In this document: positions 1 to 6,160 of the stretch, one piece after another
Position numbering within the stretch: the first letter of the stretch is position 1
How the letters are laid out: each line of letters starts with the position of its first letter
Source of the DNA: a virus
Taxonomy: Duplodnaviria; Heunggongvirae; Uroviricota; Caudoviricetes
Direction: 5' to 3' (one strand)
Virus record (IMG/VR): IMGVR_UViG_2648501392_000023
Coordinates: 1 to 6,160 of that record
DNA length: 6,160 nucleotides
Program-made: the position numbers and the translations under genes
Notes under the pieces: generated by a model
Seen by the model: the letters and a program-made list of their open reading frames with translations, nothing else
Database searches by the model: none
What the model was told of the DNA's origin: nothing

Positions 1-291
1 TTACCGCCGCAGTCGTTCCGGCTTCTTCCACTGGTAAGTATTTTTCGCGCTCTCCCTCCGTTGTTGAGAACGGCGACGGTATGCCAGCAACTCAAGGACT
101 CTGGTTCGTATGTTGCGCATATCCACGCCGTTAAGCTCAATACCGTCACGGCGCATCACCTCAGCCACCACACGCGCGTAATTTTCGGCTATCACGCTGT
201 CCGGCTGTGTAGCCTGTTCGTCAGGCTGCTGACTGATTCCGGTAATGCGGCGAATTATTTTTAGTAGATCAGTTTCAGTCATTCTCGTCAT
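1..291 (-). CDS. hypothetical small protein (96 aa) translationally coupled to the large terminase
   Basis: Complete ORF: ATG at 291..289 overlaps the terL TGA stop (290..288) in an ATGA arrangement; TAA stop at 3..1. No family motif recognised; arginine-rich C-terminus. Confidence 0.5.
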   Translation of the reverse strand: MTRMTETDLLKIIRRITGISQQPDEQATQPDSVIAENYARVVAEVMRRDGIELNGVDMRNIRTRVLELLAYRRRSQQRRESAKNTYQWKKPERLRR

Positions 292-1949
292 ACCCCATCA
301 AACGCCGCAAGTCGCTCTTTGTGGCTGTCGCTCATATCAAATGCAAATTCCTCATGCTCTGCCTGGAATGTGCCAAACGCCATCAGCGCCGCAACGCTCG
401 GGTCTATCTTGTTGGATGATTTTTTCTTGTTCGGCTTGATATTGGCGTTCGCGTCACTCTGCATCACAACATTACTCATTGACCAGGCCAGCACCGGATC
501 ACCACGATGCACAATCACCTTCCGGTTAACAAAAACTTCGAACGATTTCGCCGCCGGACTGAAACGAAGGTATGTTTGCGGGAACGGCTCCACCTCAAAT
601 CCTGCCCCCTGTAGCTGCGTCCTCAGGTGCGTGGCGTTCCATGTATCGAAGCCCACCAGCCTGATATTGAAATTCTCTGCATCCGCCATGATGTCATCAC
701 GGATACGGTCATAATCAATGCAGTCACCAGGTGTTGTGCGTATCCAGCCCGCCTTTACCCACTGGCGATAGATGGCGCGGTTTTTATTGGCGGGGTTCTG
801 TAGCTGAAATTCCGGCAGATAGTGACGGGAAATCAGCATAATCTTTTTACCGACCGGAAAGGCATAGCACACGCTGGAAATATCGCTGGTTGATGATAAG
901 TCCAGCCCCGCGTAGCACTCCTGCCCGTATAAATCCGCCTCCGCGAACGTTCCGGCGCACTCCGCCCATGCACCGTTACCCATCCACGGCGTAGCCCCCT
1001 GACACCAGATATTGAATCGCTTGGTGAGCATTTCCACCCACTGCGACGGAATACCCCGCGCTTTCTGGATGGTTGAGGCCAGTTTTTCACGATCGACGGA
1101 AACATCGATATTTGGATTCGCCTTTATCCACATCGCCGGATCGTCAACCTCGCTTTCATCATCCAGCTCGTAAATCAGAACGAACATGGATTCGTTCATC
1201 TCTTCACCATCCAGTATCTGACAGCAATAGTCATAGTGTTGTTTACAGGCTGAAACAACGTTGCTCCCCGATGTGGTGATGGCAAATAACAGCCCCTCCG
1301 GACGCGCCCCCATCCCCAGCTCAAGTGCGGAATAAACCCCGTTGTCTGGGTGCAGGTGATATTCATCCACAATGGCAAGACTCGGGTTTGTCCCCTCAAT
1401 GGTTGCCGCTTTTGCTGCCAGTGGCTTTAACAGGCTGTTGGTTTTCGGGTGTATCACCTTGTGCGCCTGAATATTTACCCGCTTTCGTAACGGTCGGGAT
1501 AAAAGGCACATCTGACGCGCATCATCAAACACGATCCGCGCCTGATCACGACTCACGGCGGCGGTGTAAATATCCTGCTGCCCGTTTTCCATAACCAGAA
1601 ACCAGTTAGCCAGGATAGCGGCGACCGTGGATTTGGCATTTTTTCGCGGTACTTCAATGAATGCGCTGGTGTATTTGCGCCGTCCGGTGGCCTTAACCTT
1701 AAAGCCCAGGATGCAGGCAAAGGCGAACTGCTGCCACGGCTCCAGTTCAATGGGACTACCGCGCATTGCGCCTTTTACGTGCGGACACACCCGGGAAAAG
1801 GCAATAAACCGCTCCACGACCTCCGGATCGAACGTGTAAAGGGAGTTTTCAAGGTCAGAAAAATACCGTTTAACGGCCTGTTTCAGTCGTTTACAGGCCG
1901 TAATTTTGCCGTTTTTTACGCCTTCTGCGTACTCATGCCAGGCGGTCAA
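288..1949 (-). CDS. terL: terminase large subunit (Terminase_1-like ATPase/nuclease), 553 aa
   Basis: Deviant Walker A (VPRKNAKST), Walker B (LAIVDEYH), C-terminal nuclease-like acidic motifs (GLDLSSTSD, VGFDTW). Most upstream in-frame start is TTG at 1949..1947, preceded by GAGGA; the first internal ATG is about 60 codons in, so a non-ATG start is likely. Overlaps the terS 3' end by 17 nt. Confidence 0.9.
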   Translation of the reverse strand: MTAWHEYAEGVKNGKITACKRLKQAVKRYFSDLENSLYTFDPEVVERFIAFSRVCPHVKGAMRGSPIELEPWQQFAFACILGFKVKATGRRKYTSAFIEVPRKNAKSTVAAILANWFLVMENGQQDIYTAAVSRDQARIVFDDARQMCLLSRPLRKRVNIQAHKVIHPKTNSLLKPLAAKAATIEGTNPSLAIVDEYHLHPDNGVYSALELGMGARPEGLLFAITTSGSNVVSACKQHYDYCCQILDGEEMNESMFVLIYELDDESEVDDPAMWIKANPNIDVSVDREKLASTIQKARGIPSQWVEMLTKRFNIWCQGATPWMGNGAWAECAGTFAEADLYGQECYAGLDLSSTSDISSVCYAFPVGKKIMLISRHYLPEFQLQNPANKNRAIYRQWVKAGWIRTTPGDCIDYDRIRDDIMADAENFNIRLVGFDTWNATHLRTQLQGAGFEVEPFPQTYLRFSPAAKSFEVFVNRKVIVHRGDPVLAWSMSNVVMQSDANANIKPNKKKSSNKIDPSVAALMAFGTFQAEHEEFAFDMSDSHKERLAAFDGV

Positions 1950-2289
1950 GTTCGTCCTCTTCCTCTGTTTCCGGTGGATTTCTGCGACGGCTTACCGGGT
2001 CAAAACCCAGCAAAGAAGCCATTTTGATCATTATTCTTTCTGCGTCAGCCTTTGCGCTCAGTGCGGGGTTTCTGCTCTCGCTGCCCTGACTGTTAACAAT
2101 GCTGAACCCGCGCGTCGCAAGGTCTTCGACGGCTTTGCGGTATATGGAGTAGTTAACACAATACAGTTCCAGATTGCTCCAGTCGGCGGGGGTAAGGTCT
2201 TCCCGCCCGGAAAGCTGGCGCGATTTTTCCTTCCACTGCCTGACCGCGATTTCATCCAGGTAAGCGGGGGCTTTTGGTGGTCTTGCCAT
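1933..2289 (-). CDS. terS: terminase small subunit, P27-family-like, 118 aa
   Basis: ATG at 2289..2287 gives MARPPKAPAYLDE...; the N-terminal RPPK motif and central LELYCVNYSIY segment resemble P27-type small terminases. TGA stop at 1935..1933. Sits immediately upstream of terL. The ORF-track extension to 2430 is not supported. Confidence 0.8.
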   Translation of the reverse strand: MARPPKAPAYLDEIAVRQWKEKSRQLSGREDLTPADWSNLELYCVNYSIYRKAVEDLATRGFSIVNSQGSESRNPALSAKADAERIMIKMASLLGFDPVSRRRNPPETEEEDELDRLA

Positions 2290-2340
2290 GTTCTTTTTTC
2301 GCCCAATTATTTTCAAAAAAATTACCGTGCACAAAAATTT

Positions 2341-2400
2341 GAGGGGGCGGTCGGTGTCCGGCAGGGACGGTTTCGTCCTGAAAACCACCCCCACCCCCTC
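2341..2400. other. GC-rich imperfect palindrome in the HNH-terS intergenic region; candidate cos (cosN-like) site or strong stem-loop
   Basis: GAGGGGG (2341..2347) and CCCCCTC (2394..2400) form an outer inverted repeat around an inner hairpin GGACG-GTTT-CGTCC (2365..2378). It lies about 50 to 100 bp upstream of terS and downstream of HNH, where HK97-type cos sites are found. Confidence 0.3.
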
Positions 2401-2408
2401 TGACGGCC

Positions 2409-2594
2409 TCACCAGCGATTGCGAAAACATTCCATGACCTCGCGGTCACGGTCGGTTAATCGCTTCGCTGTGGTGCGTTTTGTGCGCCCTGTCCTGTTGG
2501 CTTTGTGCTCTGTCTCCTGTGTCTTCCATGTGTCACGCTGCCTTATCAGTCCACGTATCAGCCTGGTTTGCTCCTGTTCAGTCATCATCGCCAT
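2409..2594 (-). CDS. possible small basic protein (58-61 aa) overlapping the HNH stop; may be non-coding
   Basis: Three in-frame ATGs (2594, 2588, 2585) give MAMMTEQEQTRLIRGLIRQRDTWKTQETEHKANRTGRTKRTTAKRLTDRDREVMECFRNRW; the start overlaps the HNH TGA. The region is strongly purine-rich on the coding strand and could instead be packaging-site DNA. Confidence 0.2.
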   Translation of the reverse strand: MAMMTEQEQTRLIRGLIRQRDTWKTQETEHKANRTGRTKRTTAKRLTDRDREVMECFRNRW

Positions 2595-3018
2595 ACATCC
2601 AGTCGTTACGGTGTGCCGCCCGTTCTTCCTGCTCGCGATACATGCCCGCTTTACGGTTTGCTTTCGTGGCTGGATCTTCCCGTGTCGTCTTACGGTTGTG
2701 GCACGTCTGGCACAATGCCTGGTGATTCCACTCAGGCCAGAAGAGAACATCACCGCCGCCATTGATGGGAATGATGTGATCCACCACAAGAGCTGGCGTA
2801 TAAATCCCCTTAGCCAGACAACGCACGCATAACGGGTTTTTGCTCAGGTACAGGGCGCGGTATTTGTCCCACTGTCGGGAATACCCGCGCGCGCGGCGGT
2901 GTCCCCGTCTGGCATCCTCTGCACGCCATGCAGCCCGCCTGTGCTCTTCACACTTGCCGGACTTCACGCGCTTATTACAGCCAGGCTCAGTGCATCGCCT
3001 TAATGGTTGCCACGGCAT
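2578..3018 (-). CDS. HNH endonuclease (terminase-associated), 146 aa
   Basis: N-terminal CxxC...C cysteine pairs plus DHIIPINGGG...NHQALCQTCHNRKT HNH signature. ATG at 3018..3016 overlaps the TGA of the upstream connector gene (ATGA). Directly precedes terS. Confidence 0.85.
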   Translation of the reverse strand: MPWQPLRRCTEPGCNKRVKSGKCEEHRRAAWRAEDARRGHRRARGYSRQWDKYRALYLSKNPLCVRCLAKGIYTPALVVDHIIPINGGGDVLFWPEWNHQALCQTCHNRKTTREDPATKANRKAGMYREQEERAAHRNDWMYGDDD

Positions 3019-3320
3019 CAGTACACCCCTACGTCACGATAAACTGACCAGAGCGCAGAAATAGCCATAGGCAGTTCCGAGTGCTCCACTGGTGAAACCG
3101 CTTCCCGGTTCTCGTACAGGAAAGCGATGTACATCAGGCAACCAACACGCATTGCCGGGGTAAATTCCAGCCCGTCTTCAAAACGTTTCCCGATATGCTT
3201 CTGGCAGGCTTCCAGCGCCGCATCGGTATACATTTTCAGAAGTTCGCCTTCACCGGATAAATCATCATCAAGTCGAAGATGTGCCCTGACTTCATCAGGT
3301 GTAATTCTGGCTTCACTCAT
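3018..3320 (-). CDS. gp6-like head-tail connector protein, about 100 aa
   Basis: ATG at 3320..3318 with upstream AGGGAGAAAAG RBS gives MSEARITPDEVRAHLRLDDD... and a later LYENREAV motif, matching the gp6-like connector family signature. The start overlaps the last codons of the portal gene by 8 nt. The ORF-track extension to 3407 is rejected. Confidence 0.75.
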   Translation of the reverse strand: MSEARITPDEVRAHLRLDDDLSGEGELLKMYTDAALEACQKHIGKRFEDGLEFTPAMRVGCLMYIAFLYENREAVSPVEHSELPMAISALWSVYRDVGVY

Positions 3321-4527
3321 CTTTTCTCCCTTTAATTTCCACAGTCTGTTTCCATGCCTGGCTGAACTCATCACCACCTTCACGCGGCGGCATACCCTCA
3401 CGCTCACGGGCTTCGTTCGGATTCATGATCCCGTTCTTAATCCCTTTCTCATACGTGGCATAACGTTCGGTGGGTGTGGCGCGTAATAAATCGGCTGAAT
3501 CAAACTCAACCAGATAACGGGTACCAGGTACGGGAGAAGCCACCAGCAAAGCGGCCTTGATTTGCTGTTCGAAGTTCGCCAGCCACGGGCGCATTGTCAT
3601 GGTCAGAAACGCGCGGCTTGCCTCGCTGAAATTGCTGTAGGTGCTGTTGCTGTATTCCTGCAGAAAAATAGGCGATACGTTGAACATGCGGGCGATGTCT
3701 TCAATGGAGAAGCGACGGGAGGCCAGCCATTCCGCATCCTGGTTACTCATTCCCAGTTGCCTGTAATCCATGCCCCCTTCAAGGATTGGCGTTTTTCCGG
3801 CATTTTTCGCCCCCTTGTAGCGTTCCAGAGCATCCAATGCCTGTTTACCTTTCACGCCGTCCAGCCATTCGCCTGACGTGATAATCCCTGCCGCCATCAT
3901 GCCATCTTTCATAATGCTGGCTCCGTGGCGCTGTTGAGCAAGGCCAAGCCCAAGTGCCTCACGGCAAATCGTGACGGGGGAGCGCCCCAGAAAGCCATCA
4001 TCCGAGGCATAGCGGAGATGCAGAACTTCTTCCTGTAAATACGTGCGCACCGTTCCTGTATAGGGTTCGGTGATGGTATAGCGGTATTTGTGTGCGCCTG
4101 TGCGTTCCGGTACAACACACCCCGGCGCATAAGGATGAAGTGATTTTGGCTGCCCGTCCTGCCCCCACTCAATAACCGCATAGGCGTTACCGTTCAGCAG
4201 GCAGTGACGCATCATTGTGCGTTTAAACTGGTAAGGTGTCTGGCACGAATTAGGCTGCTCATTCAGCAGAATATCTACCGGGTGACTGTCCAGCCATTCC
4301 CGCGCCTCCCTGCCCTTGTCATTACGTACCAGATACAGATAACACGGCATCGTGGCCACCGCCTCAGCGATGACAGAAACCGCATTCATCACTGCAGGCA
4401 ATGATTCAGCCGTCCCGGCAGAAACATATTCTCCGGATCCGGTATTCGGTACGCCGGACAGCGCCAGAAAATCATCAATGGACAGGTTACGCTGCTCGCT
4501 TTTTTTACGACTAAAAGGCCACCACAT
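3313..4527 (-). CDS. portal protein, HK97 family, 404 aa
   Basis: ATG at 4527..4525 (MWWPFSRKK...), one nt after the protease stop. Conserved portal core: ...NQDAEWLASRRFSIEDIARMFNVSPIFLQEYSNSTYSNFSEASRAFLTMTMRPWL. The ORF-track start at 4617 is a TTG extension overlapping the protease gene. Confidence 0.9.
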   Translation of the reverse strand: MWWPFSRKKSEQRNLSIDDFLALSGVPNTGSGEYVSAGTAESLPAVMNAVSVIAEAVATMPCYLYLVRNDKGREAREWLDSHPVDILLNEQPNSCQTPYQFKRTMMRHCLLNGNAYAVIEWGQDGQPKSLHPYAPGCVVPERTGAHKYRYTITEPYTGTVRTYLQEEVLHLRYASDDGFLGRSPVTICREALGLGLAQQRHGASIMKDGMMAAGIITSGEWLDGVKGKQALDALERYKGAKNAGKTPILEGGMDYRQLGMSNQDAEWLASRRFSIEDIARMFNVSPIFLQEYSNSTYSNFSEASRAFLTMTMRPWLANFEQQIKAALLVASPVPGTRYLVEFDSADLLRATPTERYATYEKGIKNGIMNPNEAREREGMPPREGGDEFSQAWKQTVEIKGRKDE

Positions 4528-4528
4528 A

Positions 4529-5089
4529 TCACAACCCCGCCAGCTCAGACCAGCGATGACGATTATTTCCTGTCGGGCATAATTCAGGGTGCTGTGCAAA
4601 CAACGAACGGTGGGCAATCTCCACGCCAGATTCTGGATAAGCAGGCATCGACGTTATTGTGATTTCACGGAGTTCAGCGGCGGTTACGGTACGCAAATAC
4701 GGTTTTTGCGCGATACTCCACTCCTCGCATAATGCGCGAAAACCAAAGCTCATTCCTGTAATGTCGCCACGCTCCACCAGCGTAAGCACATCTTTTCCAA
4801 GCTGGGTATCCGGCGGTGTCAGTTCAAAACGTAACCCGGTGTTATCCTCAGTCAGTACCAGAGTGCCGGATTTGGTGCGCCCCAGCAGTTGGGTATAGTC
4901 ATGCTCATACAGGCAGCGCACATCATTACCCGCCGCCAGATAGTCAGCAAAAGCCCCCGGCGTGAACTGTTCGCGGAATTCGTCCCAGATAATTTCTGAA
5001 AGGCTGTTCCAGCGAACGGCATACCCCACCAGCTTTTTATTGCTGGCGGTCAGTTCAGATGTGCGGATTTCAAAATCGGTGTTTTTCAT
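4529..5089 (-). CDS. prohead maturation protease, HK97 family (S78-like), 186 aa
   Basis: ATG at 5089..5087 with GGAG 7 nt upstream. VGYAVRWNS...PGAF, a His-containing LYEHD segment and the GMSFGF serine motif are typical of HK97 prohead proteases. Confidence 0.85.
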   Translation of the reverse strand: MKNTDFEIRTSELTASNKKLVGYAVRWNSLSEIIWDEFREQFTPGAFADYLAAGNDVRCLYEHDYTQLLGRTKSGTLVLTEDNTGLRFELTPPDTQLGKDVLTLVERGDITGMSFGFRALCEEWSIAQKPYLRTVTAAELREITITSMPAYPESGVEIAHRSLFAQHPELCPTGNNRHRWSELAGL

Positions 5090-5100
5090 CGGTGTACTCC

Positions 5101-5131
5101 ATAAAGCTGAAAAAGGAGGCCGCAGCCTCCT
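5101..5131 (-). terminator. candidate intrinsic terminator/attenuator between the capsid and protease genes
   Basis: On the minus-strand RNA: AGGAGGC-UGCG-GCCUCCU (7-bp GC-rich stem, 4-nt loop) followed by UUUUCAGCUUU, starting about 12 nt after the capsid TAG stop. Confidence 0.3.
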
Positions 5132-5143
5132 CCTTACTCATGA

Positions 5144-6061
5144 CTAGCCAGCTTTCATTTCCAGAATTTTGATGGCGTTTGAATCCACCACACCACCGCC
5201 CAGATATTTATCCGTGTGGACCTTGTAGAATCCGGGTTCAGTAATGTTGTCCGGTCGGGTGCGAATCCCTGTTACATGATCAACGATGAAATAACCACGA
5301 CTGAAATCGCCAACCGCTAGCGGTGCTTTTCCTGCGCCGATGTCCGGCATGGACTCCAGGCAGTAAACAGGACGACCAAGCAACATATCCGGCGCACCTT
5401 CTTTAAGGCTGTCGCGCCAGATATAATCGCCGTTCTCATTTTTCAGCTTCTGTAGTGTCCCTGCCGTGCCCGAGTTCATCACCCAGACGGCATTTTTGCG
5501 GTATTTCGCTTTCAGCTTGTAGAGAATGTCGATCAGTTCGTCCGCTGTAATGGCGGTTCCACTTGCCGCTACCATTTTTTCAATGGTGCCAAAAGCGCGG
5601 GTTTTGTCACTGGTCGCCGCACGGGTGTAAGCCATGAAGCCTTTCGGCTTGCCGTTACCGTTGCCATTAACAAAATCATCCTCTTCGGTGCTGGCGAACG
5701 TGTCGGCAATTTCGGAGGATAACCAGCCCAGAATATCCACCTCTGAAAAATCTAGGATTTCCTGCGTGGTTTTCGGGTAGGCGTAGATCGGGTTCAGCTT
5801 GATGGTTACGCGTTCAATTTTCGGGGTGTTGGTTTCACTGCGTGCGCTGCCTTCTGTGCCTCGTCCTACAGTTGCGCCGCCAGTGGAAACCAGTTTCTGA
5901 AACTCATTTGATTTTGCAGTCTTCACGGTCGCGATCACGCGCATAACACTGTCATCCTGTAGCTGGCGCATGACTTCGCGATCAAGCTCAGGAATTACGG
6001 TATATCCGCCATCCCTGCCGCTGTCAGTGCTGGTGGACAGAGATCGCACATCTCCGGTTAC
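5144..6061 (-). pseudogene. major capsid protein, HK97 fold; 5' end interrupted by an IS insertion (about 305 codons retained)
   Basis: Conserved capsid-domain segments: GGYTVIPELDREVMRQLQDDSVMRVIATVKT near the N-terminus of the retained part and LLGRPVY...GDFSRGYFIVDHVTGIRTRP...YLGGGVVDSNAIKIL at the C-terminus. TAG stop at 5146..5144. The frame runs without an ATG into the IS terminal repeat at 6062; the first 31 residues of ORF-track 5144..6154 are IS-derived. Confidence 0.75.
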
Positions 6062-6160
6062 TGAACCGCCCCGGGAATCCTGGAGACTAAACTTCCTGAG
6101 AAAGAGGTAAACAGGATGACTAAAAATACTCGTTTTTCCCCTGAAGTCCGTCAACGGGCA
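6062..6160 (+). mobile_element. IS3-family insertion sequence (IS629/IS1203-like), left terminal inverted repeat and start of orfA; continues beyond the window
   Basis: Terminus starts TGAACCGCCCCGGGAATCCTGGAGAC (typical IS3-family TG... end), followed by AAGAGG RBS and orfA ATG. Family assignment is from recalled IS629-type sequence, not a search. Confidence 0.75.
6116..6160 (+). CDS. IS3-family transposase OrfA, N-terminal 15 codons (partial, runs off the window)
   Basis: ATG at 6116 translates to MTKNTRFSPEVRQRA, matching the recalled N-terminus of IS629/IS1203-type OrfA; RBS AAGAGG 7 nt upstream. Confidence 0.75.
   Translation, partial: MTKNTRFSPEVRQRA

What the first reader, a model, noticed from the sequence alone, without database searches (positions are those of the whole stretch)
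5144..6160. IS3-family element inserted into the major capsid gene near the expected delta-domain boundary
The capsid reading frame has no ATG in its native part and runs straight into the IS terminal repeat (TGAACCGCCCCGGG... from 6062). The ORF-track protein 5144..6154 is therefore a chimera whose first 31 residues are reverse-translated IS DNA. The break falls just upstream of an SLSTSTDSG segment that resembles the mature N-terminus of HK97 capsid (inference from recalled HK97 sequence). If the N-terminal scaffold-like domain lies beyond the IS, the element cannot make its own capsid and is probably defective, or dependent on a helper.
Basis: partly seen in the sequence, partly recalled or inferred. 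Interest (0 to 1): 0.55.

Follow-up and report, generated by a model that had tools for sequence, protein, structure and literature searches.

The report
IS629 insertion splitting a satellite's capsid gene
A common E. coli jumping gene (IS629) has landed in the capsid gene of a phage satellite that normally builds its own small capsids, cutting off the scaffold part of the protein; this almost certainly disables the satellite and is an ordinary kind of gene decay.

Summary
Window 1-6061 matches intact E. coli loci at up to 99.95% identity without gaps. Similarity stops exactly at 6061/6062. Bases 6062-6160 are identical to the first 99 nt of a 1310-bp IS3-family element that is 99.9% identical to annotated IS629.

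Intact homologues encode a 389-aa HK97-fold capsid protein. The window keeps codons 85-389 and lacks the first 84. In the closest solved relative, the EcCIEDL933 capsid (PDB 9GYI, 65% identity), the mature protein starts at residue 93. The break therefore lies 8 codons upstream of the aligned maturation site.

The host element is not a phage. It is a capsid-forming phage-inducible chromosomal island (cf-PICI) next to fis, with no tail genes. It therefore always needs a helper phage for tails.

The source is an E. coli draft contig (JHRX01000018.1) that ends 100 nt into the IS, so the far junction cannot be read there. A 3-bp target duplication followed by the IS's terminal TGA predicts an 85-aa N-terminal product. 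That exact protein is on record, on one NCBI contig.

In EcCIEDL933, capsid mutants replicate but do not transfer, so this copy is probably transfer-dead. This is known biology and of low interest.

The parts
5144..6061 (-). 3' portion of the cf-PICI major capsid gene: codons 85-389 plus the stop at 5144-5146. It lacks its promoter, start codon and first 84 codons.
   Evidence: Pfam PF05065 E 2.5e-71. Identical to residues 85-389 of the intact 389-aa protein of L001. 100% DNA identity to many E. coli genomes up to 6061. PDB 9GYI (EcCIEDL933 capsid) E 7.9e-155.
6035..6040 (-). Codons L92 and S93, the predicted prohead-protease maturation site. The mature N-terminus would be STSTDSGRDGGY.
   Evidence: Aligned with S93 of the EcCIEDL933 capsid. 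That residue is the reported first residue of its mature protein (paper 10.1101/2025.02.11.637232). Inferred by homology; not tested for this protein.
6047..6049 (-). In-frame GTG, which is Val89 of the intact protein. It is not the natural start.
   Evidence: All intact homologues start 88 codons upstream at ATG. No gene product starting here is on record.
6059..6061 (.). TAC, the copy of the inferred 3-bp target-site duplication that lies next to the left IS end. On the capsid strand it is GTA, Val85.
   Evidence: The intact sequence reads ccggttac|gatgtag. The predicted far junction ...ATC GTA|TGA gives an 85-aa product ending in V, and that exact protein exists (P0043). A reference IS629 copy has a 3-bp repeat, CTG/CTG.
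6062..6160 (+). First 99 nt of IS629 (IS3 family). The left terminal inverted repeat region is about 6062-6102. The transposase orfA begins at ATG 6116 and runs in the opposite direction to the capsid gene.
   Evidence: 99/99 identity to full 1310-bp copies annotated as IS3 family transposase with programmed frameshift, CDS starting 54 nt in. Inverted repeat arms. 99.9% identity to annotated IS629.
4529..5089 (-). HK97-family prohead serine protease, the next gene in the operon. It is intact.
   Evidence: Pfam PF04586 E 7e-46. The exact protein occurs in thousands of contig blocks.
288..4617 (-). The rest of the cf-PICI packaging module, all open: portal (3313-4617), head-tail connector (3018-3407), HNH (2578-3018), small terminase (1933-2430), large terminase (288-1949).
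   Evidence: Pfam hits. The gene order is the same as in intact loci L001-L011. No gaps against L001.

Best explanation
A copy of IS629 (1310 bp, IS3 family) transposed into the major capsid gene of a capsid-forming phage-inducible chromosomal island (cf-PICI) integrated next to fis in an E. coli strain.

The insertion lies between codons 84 and 85 and duplicates the 3-bp target TAC. It separates the N-terminal scaffold ('delta'-like) domain from the HK97-fold shell domain, 8 codons before the predicted protease cleavage site.

The 5' fragment ends at Val85 because the IS terminus supplies a TGA stop. The 3' fragment has no promoter or natural start. The IS also sits in antisense orientation at the head of the capsid-protease-portal-connector-HNH-TerS-TerL operon.

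The island should still be inducible and able to replicate. It should not build its own small capsids and so should not transfer, unless an intact capsid gene is supplied in trans or the IS excises precisely.

What is shown: the IS identity, the exact break point, the intactness of the remaining window genes, and the nature of the element.

What is inferred: the full IS and the second junction, the cleavage site, and the loss of function.
For: - Break point: identity to intact loci ends exactly at 6061/6062.
- IS identity: 6062-6160 equals the IS629 left end.
- Intact gene: 389 aa, of which 84 codons are missing here. The 90%-identity cluster of this protein has 541 members, and 12 of the 15 members listed are 389 aa.
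- Element type: intact loci show int-alpA-primase followed by capsid-protease-portal-connector-HNH-TerS-TerL, about 14 kb, with no tail genes. On the source contig fis follows directly. This matches the published cf-PICI description.
- Closest solved structure: the EcCIEDL933 cf-PICI capsid, at 65% identity. Its mature protein starts at residue 93.
- Second junction: the 85-aa product predicted from a 3-bp duplication plus the IS terminal TGA exists exactly, on one NCBI contig of 20,432 bp.
- Function: each EcCIEDL933 packaging-module mutant, capsid included, replicates, and transfer was abolished in all but the gene-1792 mutant. Complementation restores transfer.
[quoted passage not shown] The paper read here cites Oh et al. 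2014, whose title states that the delta domain is essential for assembly (that paper itself was not read).
Against: - The source contig ends 100 nt into the IS. The complete IS and the second junction were therefore not read directly.
- I could not fetch the contig carrying the 85-aa product. Its assignment to the same genome is an inference.
- No other genome with this insertion was found, so there is no independent copy.
- Loss of transfer is extrapolated from a 65%-identical homologue.
- Polarity on downstream genes is not tested.
Confidence: 0.88

Rival explanations
1. IS629 abuts the capsid 3' part, but the structure is not a simple insertion. An IS-mediated adjacent deletion, or an inversion or recombination between two IS629 copies, has moved or removed the 5' part of the gene and the left half of the island.
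For: The contig ends inside the IS, so only one junction is seen. The IS629 left-end query matched up to 50 places per genome. IS629-associated deletions are documented. A related island carries a 4.67-kb deletion ending at this very site.
Against: The exact 85-aa product expected from the 5' fragment joined to the IS629 right end through a 3-bp duplication is on record. So the 5' fragment exists next to a sequence that supplies an immediate stop. A later inversion between IS copies would keep both junctions and cannot be excluded.
Confidence: 0.08
2. The junction is an assembly artefact: a chimeric contig end in a short-read draft. The capsid gene would then be intact in the real genome.
For: Only one draft assembly carries the junction.
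Against: The break is base-exact at an IS terminus. Contigs that stop about 100 nt inside a repeat are the normal result of short-read assembly. The complementary 85-aa product was found independently.
Confidence: 0.02
3. The capsid gene naturally lacks a scaffold domain and starts at GTG 6049. The IS would then lie upstream of a functional gene.
For: An in-frame GTG exists 4 codons before the predicted mature N-terminus.
Against: Every near-identical locus continues for 84 more codons, to an ATG that gives a 389-aa protein. The EcCIEDL933 homologue is made as a precursor and cleaved at residue 93. No product starting at the GTG is on record.
Confidence: 0.01

Closest known systems
EcCIEDL933, the prototype capsid-forming PICI (cf-PICI) of E. 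coli O157:H7 EDL933 (Alqurainy et al., bioRxiv 10.1101/2022.09.08.507074; capsid structure PDB 9GYI)
   Same: The packaging-module content and order are the same: capsid-protease-portal-connector-HNH-TerS-TerL. Intact relatives have the same int/alpA/replication left module and no tail genes. The capsid protein is 65% identical over 379 aligned residues and has a conserved N-terminal domain.
   Different: This is a different island variant, integrated next to fis. It has a two-residue insertion at the mature N-terminus, so the SxGxxAD motif is not literally kept (STSTDSG). This copy is split by IS629.
IS629 (IS3 family) insertions in prophages and prophage-like elements of enterohaemorrhagic E. 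coli
   Same: The element is the same: 99/99 nt here, and the matching full copy is 99.9% identical to annotated IS629 in Stx phages. The outcome, insertional gene inactivation, is reported as typical for IS629 (PMC9943667).
   Different: This insertion site was not found in any of 5,426 complete E. coli genomes, nor in the viral, metagenome or species-representative collections.
HK97 gp5 major capsid protein with its N-terminal delta (scaffolding) domain
   Same: It has the HK97 fold family (Pfam PF05065), a fused N-terminal scaffold-like domain, an adjacent S78 prohead protease, and a Ser-rich mature N-terminus.
   Different: Sequence similarity to HK97 gp5 itself is too low for phmmer to detect at E 1e-3. 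The N-terminal domain is predicted to be 92 residues here, against 103 in HK97. The capsid gene comes before the protease and portal genes.

Membership tests
cf-PICI (capsid-forming phage-inducible chromosomal island) | Encodes its own major capsid protein, head maturation protease, portal and head-tail connector | tested here: met
   Pfam PF05065, PF04586, PF04860 and PF05135 on consecutive minus-strand ORFs. The capsid gene is present but disrupted.
cf-PICI (capsid-forming phage-inducible chromosomal island) | Encodes HNH, small terminase and large terminase, in the proteobacterial order with morphogenesis genes first and then hnh-terS-terL | tested here: met
   PF01844, PF05119 and PF03354+PF20441 in that order. 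The order is as described in the paper.
cf-PICI (capsid-forming phage-inducible chromosomal island) | No tail or lysis genes; island size about 15 kb | tested here: met
   On the source contig, fis follows the last island ORF directly. Near-identical intact loci span about 14 kb from int to ORF96 with no tail genes.
cf-PICI (capsid-forming phage-inducible chromosomal island) | PICI-type left module (int, alpA, replication/primase) | tested here: inconclusive
   It is present in loci that are 99.8-99.95% identical over the window (L001, L002, L004, L006). In the source genome that part lies on another contig, which could not be fetched.
cf-PICI (capsid-forming phage-inducible chromosomal island) | Helper-phage induction, and packaging into island-made small capsids joined to phage tails | not testable with these tools
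   This is experimental. It has been shown only for EcCIEDL933.
IS629 (IS3 family) | Terminal sequence TGAACCGCCCCGGG... with an imperfect terminal inverted repeat | tested here: met
   6062-6160 is identical to the left end of a 1310-bp copy with inverted arms.
IS629 (IS3 family) | orfA/orfB transposase made by programmed frameshift; full length about 1.3 kb | tested here: inconclusive
   Only the first 15 codons of orfA lie in the window (6116-6160). The matching full copy has these features. The contig ends 100 nt into the IS.
IS629 (IS3 family) | 3-bp target-site duplication | tested here: inconclusive
   The evidence is indirect. The 85-aa product predicted from a TAC duplication plus the IS terminal TGA exists. 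A reference copy shows a 3-bp repeat. The second junction was not read.
HK97-type capsid protein with fused delta domain | N-terminal domain removed by the prohead protease at a defined site | not testable with these tools
   Inferred from mass-spectrometry and cryo-EM data on the EcCIEDL933 homologue.

The most novel reading that the evidence does not exclude
The Ile84/Val85 site may be a recurrent IS629 target. IEE-assisted excision there may generate stripped-down islands. A related fis-site island (L014-L018) has lost capsid codon 87 through the middle of TerL by a 4.67-kb deletion with a 4-nt microhomology, and the capsid-side end of that deletion abuts this exact IS629 target. In one assembly this deleted form appears as a circular contig. 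If such deletion derivatives still excise and spread by using capsids made by intact cf-PICIs, they would be satellites of a satellite.
Probability: 0.08. Interest if true: 0.55.

Novelty: already known. Interest (0 to 1): 0.15.

Why it matters
This mainly matters for annotation. The 336/338-aa 'capsid' ORF is a chimera (it is in NCBI as a partial protein, WP_432756419.1), and the locus is a decayed cf-PICI rather than a defective prophage.

It is also a natural knock-out of a cf-PICI capsid gene in which every other packaging gene in the window is intact. That could serve as a ready-made control for studies of satellite transfer, or as a reporter of IS629 excision. It does not change what is known about either the IS or the satellite family.

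Tried and rejected
- Exact-match scans for the 36-nt junction found nothing in species-representative genomes, IMG/VR viral contigs or JGI metagenome contigs.
- Neither junction occurs in complete RefSeq E. coli genomes.
- Look-ups of the capsid fragment as a 301-aa product (GTG start) or a 336-aa product (TTG start) found nothing. Only the 338-aa product, read from the contig edge, was on record. That look-up identified the source contig.
- A literature search for the WGS accession JHRX00000000 found nothing.
- phmmer against PDB sequences did not reach HK97 gp5 itself. The link to HK97 therefore rests on the published EcCIEDL933 comparison.
- The simple terminator scan did not flag the hairpin between the capsid and protease genes, although it does appear on folding.
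- I considered and rejected the idea that the element is a complete or defective tailed prophage. No tail genes are present in any near-identical locus, and the left module is int/alpA/primase.

Full report
**What is in the window.** All sizeable coding ORFs are on the minus strand and form one head and packaging module.

| Window coordinates | Gene | Pfam |
|---|---|---|
| 5144-6061 | major capsid protein | PF05065, E 2.5e-71 |
| 4529-5089 | S78 prohead protease | PF04586 |
| 3313-4617 | portal | PF04860 |
| 3018-3407 | head-tail connector | PF05135 |
| 2578-3018 | HNH endonuclease | PF01844 |
| 1933-2430 | P27-type small terminase | PF05119 |
| 288-1949 | large terminase | PF03354 + PF20441 |
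| 1-291 | 96-aa ORF | none |

**The observation.** The sequence TGAACCGCCCCGGG starts at 6062. Megablast of 4900-6160 against 5,426 complete E. coli genomes gives many 100% matches, and all of them stop at 6061. None covers the junction. Window 1-6061 aligns to intact loci L001 and L006 at 99.95%, with 3 mismatches and no gaps. The IS is therefore the only structural lesion in the window. In intact DNA the sequence runs ...ccggttac|gatgtagttacgc....

**Identity of the inserted DNA.** Bases 6062-6160 hit thousands of loci annotated 'IS3 family transposase'.
- One full copy (L012 2501-3810) is 1310 bp long.
- It has the termini TGAACCGCCCCGGG.../...CCCGGGGCGGTTCA, inverted arms, a flanking 3-bp repeat (CTG) and a frameshifted transposase CDS starting 54 nt in.
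- Its first 99 nt equal the window's last 99 nt.
- It is 99.9% identical to elements annotated 'insertion sequence: IS3 family IS629' in Stx phages.

The window therefore ends with the left end of IS629. The orfA ATG is at 6116 on the plus strand, opposite in direction to the capsid gene.

**What is missing.** The intact gene (L001 6245-7414) encodes 389 aa. The window holds residues 85-389, and the break lies between Ile84 and Val85. Two points of detail need correcting:
- The native part does contain ATG codons, the first at 5971-5969.
- The ORF is not closed upstream within the window.

**Position relative to the maturation site.**
- The best PDB match is 9GYI (E 7.9e-155, 65% identity). 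The depositors' paper identifies this as the capsid of the cf-PICI EcCIEDL933.
- That paper reports N-terminal cleavage to a mature protein starting at residue 93, with an SxGxxAD motif shared with HK97.
- In the alignment that Ser93 matches Ser93 here (RSL|STSTDSG). The IS therefore lies 8 codons upstream of the predicted site.
[quoted passage not shown] The paper read here cites a study whose title says this delta domain is essential for assembly.
It is now backed by data on a much closer homologue, although the site in this protein is still inferred.

**What the host element is.**
- Intact near-identical loci show integrase, AlpA, DUF4222, a D5-type primase, a few small ORFs and then the module above. 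They total about 14 kb, sit between a methylase gene and fis, and have no tail or lysis genes.
- This is the architecture published for capsid-forming PICIs: int, alpA, rep plus capsid, protease, portal, connectors, HNH, TerS and TerL, with no tail genes and the proteobacterial gene order.
- The element is therefore a phage satellite that makes its own small capsids and takes only tails from a helper phage. It is not a defective prophage.

**Source and the far junction.**
- Look-ups of 301-aa and 336-aa versions of the fragment failed.
- The 338-aa product read from the window edge is on record on one contig, JHRX01000018.1 of GCA_001265685.1 (106,514 bp, E. coli). That contig ends 100 nt into IS629, and fis lies just beyond the island's last ORF. 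The draft assembly broke in the repeat, so the rest of the IS is not on this contig.
- A 3-bp duplication of TAC would make the other junction read ...ATC GTA|TGA on the capsid strand. This predicts an 85-aa product ending in Val85.
- That exact sequence is in the protein collection (P0043; NCBI and Logan; one contig of 20,432 bp). Four variant sequences are not.
- This supports a simple insertion with a 3-bp duplication. I could not fetch the contig to prove that it belongs to the same genome.

**Likely consequence.**
- In EcCIEDL933, mutants of each packaging-module gene, including the capsid gene, replicate normally. Their transfer was abolished in all but the gene-1792 mutant, where it was severely reduced. 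They give no PICI-sized particles, and complementation restores transfer.
- By analogy this copy should be inducible but non-transmissible, unless an intact capsid gene acts in trans or IS629 excises.
- Because the capsid gene heads the operon and the IS lies in antisense orientation, reduced expression of the downstream genes is also possible. This is inference only.

**Rivals.**
- A rearrangement rather than a simple insertion cannot be fully excluded, because only one junction was read.
- An assembly artefact is unlikely given the base-exact IS boundary and the matching 85-aa fragment.
- A naturally short capsid gene starting at GTG 6049 is refuted by the intact homologues.

**Novelty.** IS629 is reported as a frequent cause of gene inactivation in enterohaemorrhagic E. 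coli. cf-PICIs have been described since 2022. This particular insertion was not found elsewhere, but it is an ordinary event of a known kind.

**Side observations.**
- A related fis-site island (L014-L018) has a 4.67-kb deletion joining capsid codon 86 to the interior of terL. The junction shows a 4-nt microhomology (AACC), and the capsid-side breakpoint abuts the TAC targeted here.
- IEE-dependent IS629 excision is reported to leave adjacent deletions, and IEE performs microhomology-mediated end joining. A past IS629 insertion at the same site is therefore a possible origin of the deletion.
- That island's N-terminal region is only 94% identical to L001, so it is not a descendant of this insertion.
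- One assembly holds the deleted island as a circular contig with an attP-like junction and an extra reverse-transcriptase insert.

Noticed in passing
L014 10001-10447 (also L015-L018); window equivalents 6056-6059 and about 1382-1385: A related cf-PICI at the fis site carries a 4.67-kb deletion that fuses capsid codon 86 out of frame to the interior of terL. It removes the rest of the capsid gene, the protease, portal, connector, HNH and TerS genes, and half of TerL. The junction is CATCGTAACC|CGAGTC with a 4-nt microhomology (AACC). The capsid-side breakpoint abuts the TAC that IS629 targeted in the window. This could be an IEE/IS629 excision scar or a coincidence. The same junction is present in 5 loci, from NCBI isolates, gut metagenomes and Logan.
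   Followed up: partly
L016 1-12317: The contig has a 141-nt terminal overlap, so it is a circular assembly. It holds the deleted island with an attP-like junction; the 82-nt repeat equals L014 2094-2175 and 12361-12442. It also has an extra 1.9-kb insert encoding a 494-aa reverse transcriptase (PF00078), placed within the coordinates of the DUF3775-like gene of L014. This suggests that the stripped island still excises and has picked up a retroelement.
   Followed up: partly
window 5100-5135, minus strand: There is a strong hairpin, AAGGAGGAGGC-UGCG-GCCUCCUUUUU, between the capsid stop codon and the protease start codon (MFE -23.1 kcal/mol, z -2.0). It resembles a terminator or attenuator and could set the capsid-to-protease expression ratio. 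The simple terminator scan did not flag it.
   Followed up: partly
proteins P0007, P0008, P0012, P0021, P0031, P0035: The protein collection holds many other N-terminal fragments of this capsid family that switch to unrelated sequence after residue 43-68. Independent frameshift decay of cf-PICI capsid genes may be common. Alternatively, some of these may be assembly errors in the Logan data.
   Followed up: no
L011 6345-8652: In another otherwise intact island, an IS21-family element (transposase plus IstB) sits just upstream of the capsid gene. This is a second example of an IS landing at the head of the packaging operon.
   Followed up: no
L003, L005, L007, L008, L010 versus L001: The same protease and packaging module is combined with different left modules (D5-type primase or DUF927 replicase; with or without SSB and ORF6N) and is found at different chromosomal sites. 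This indicates modular exchange among these islands.
   Followed up: no
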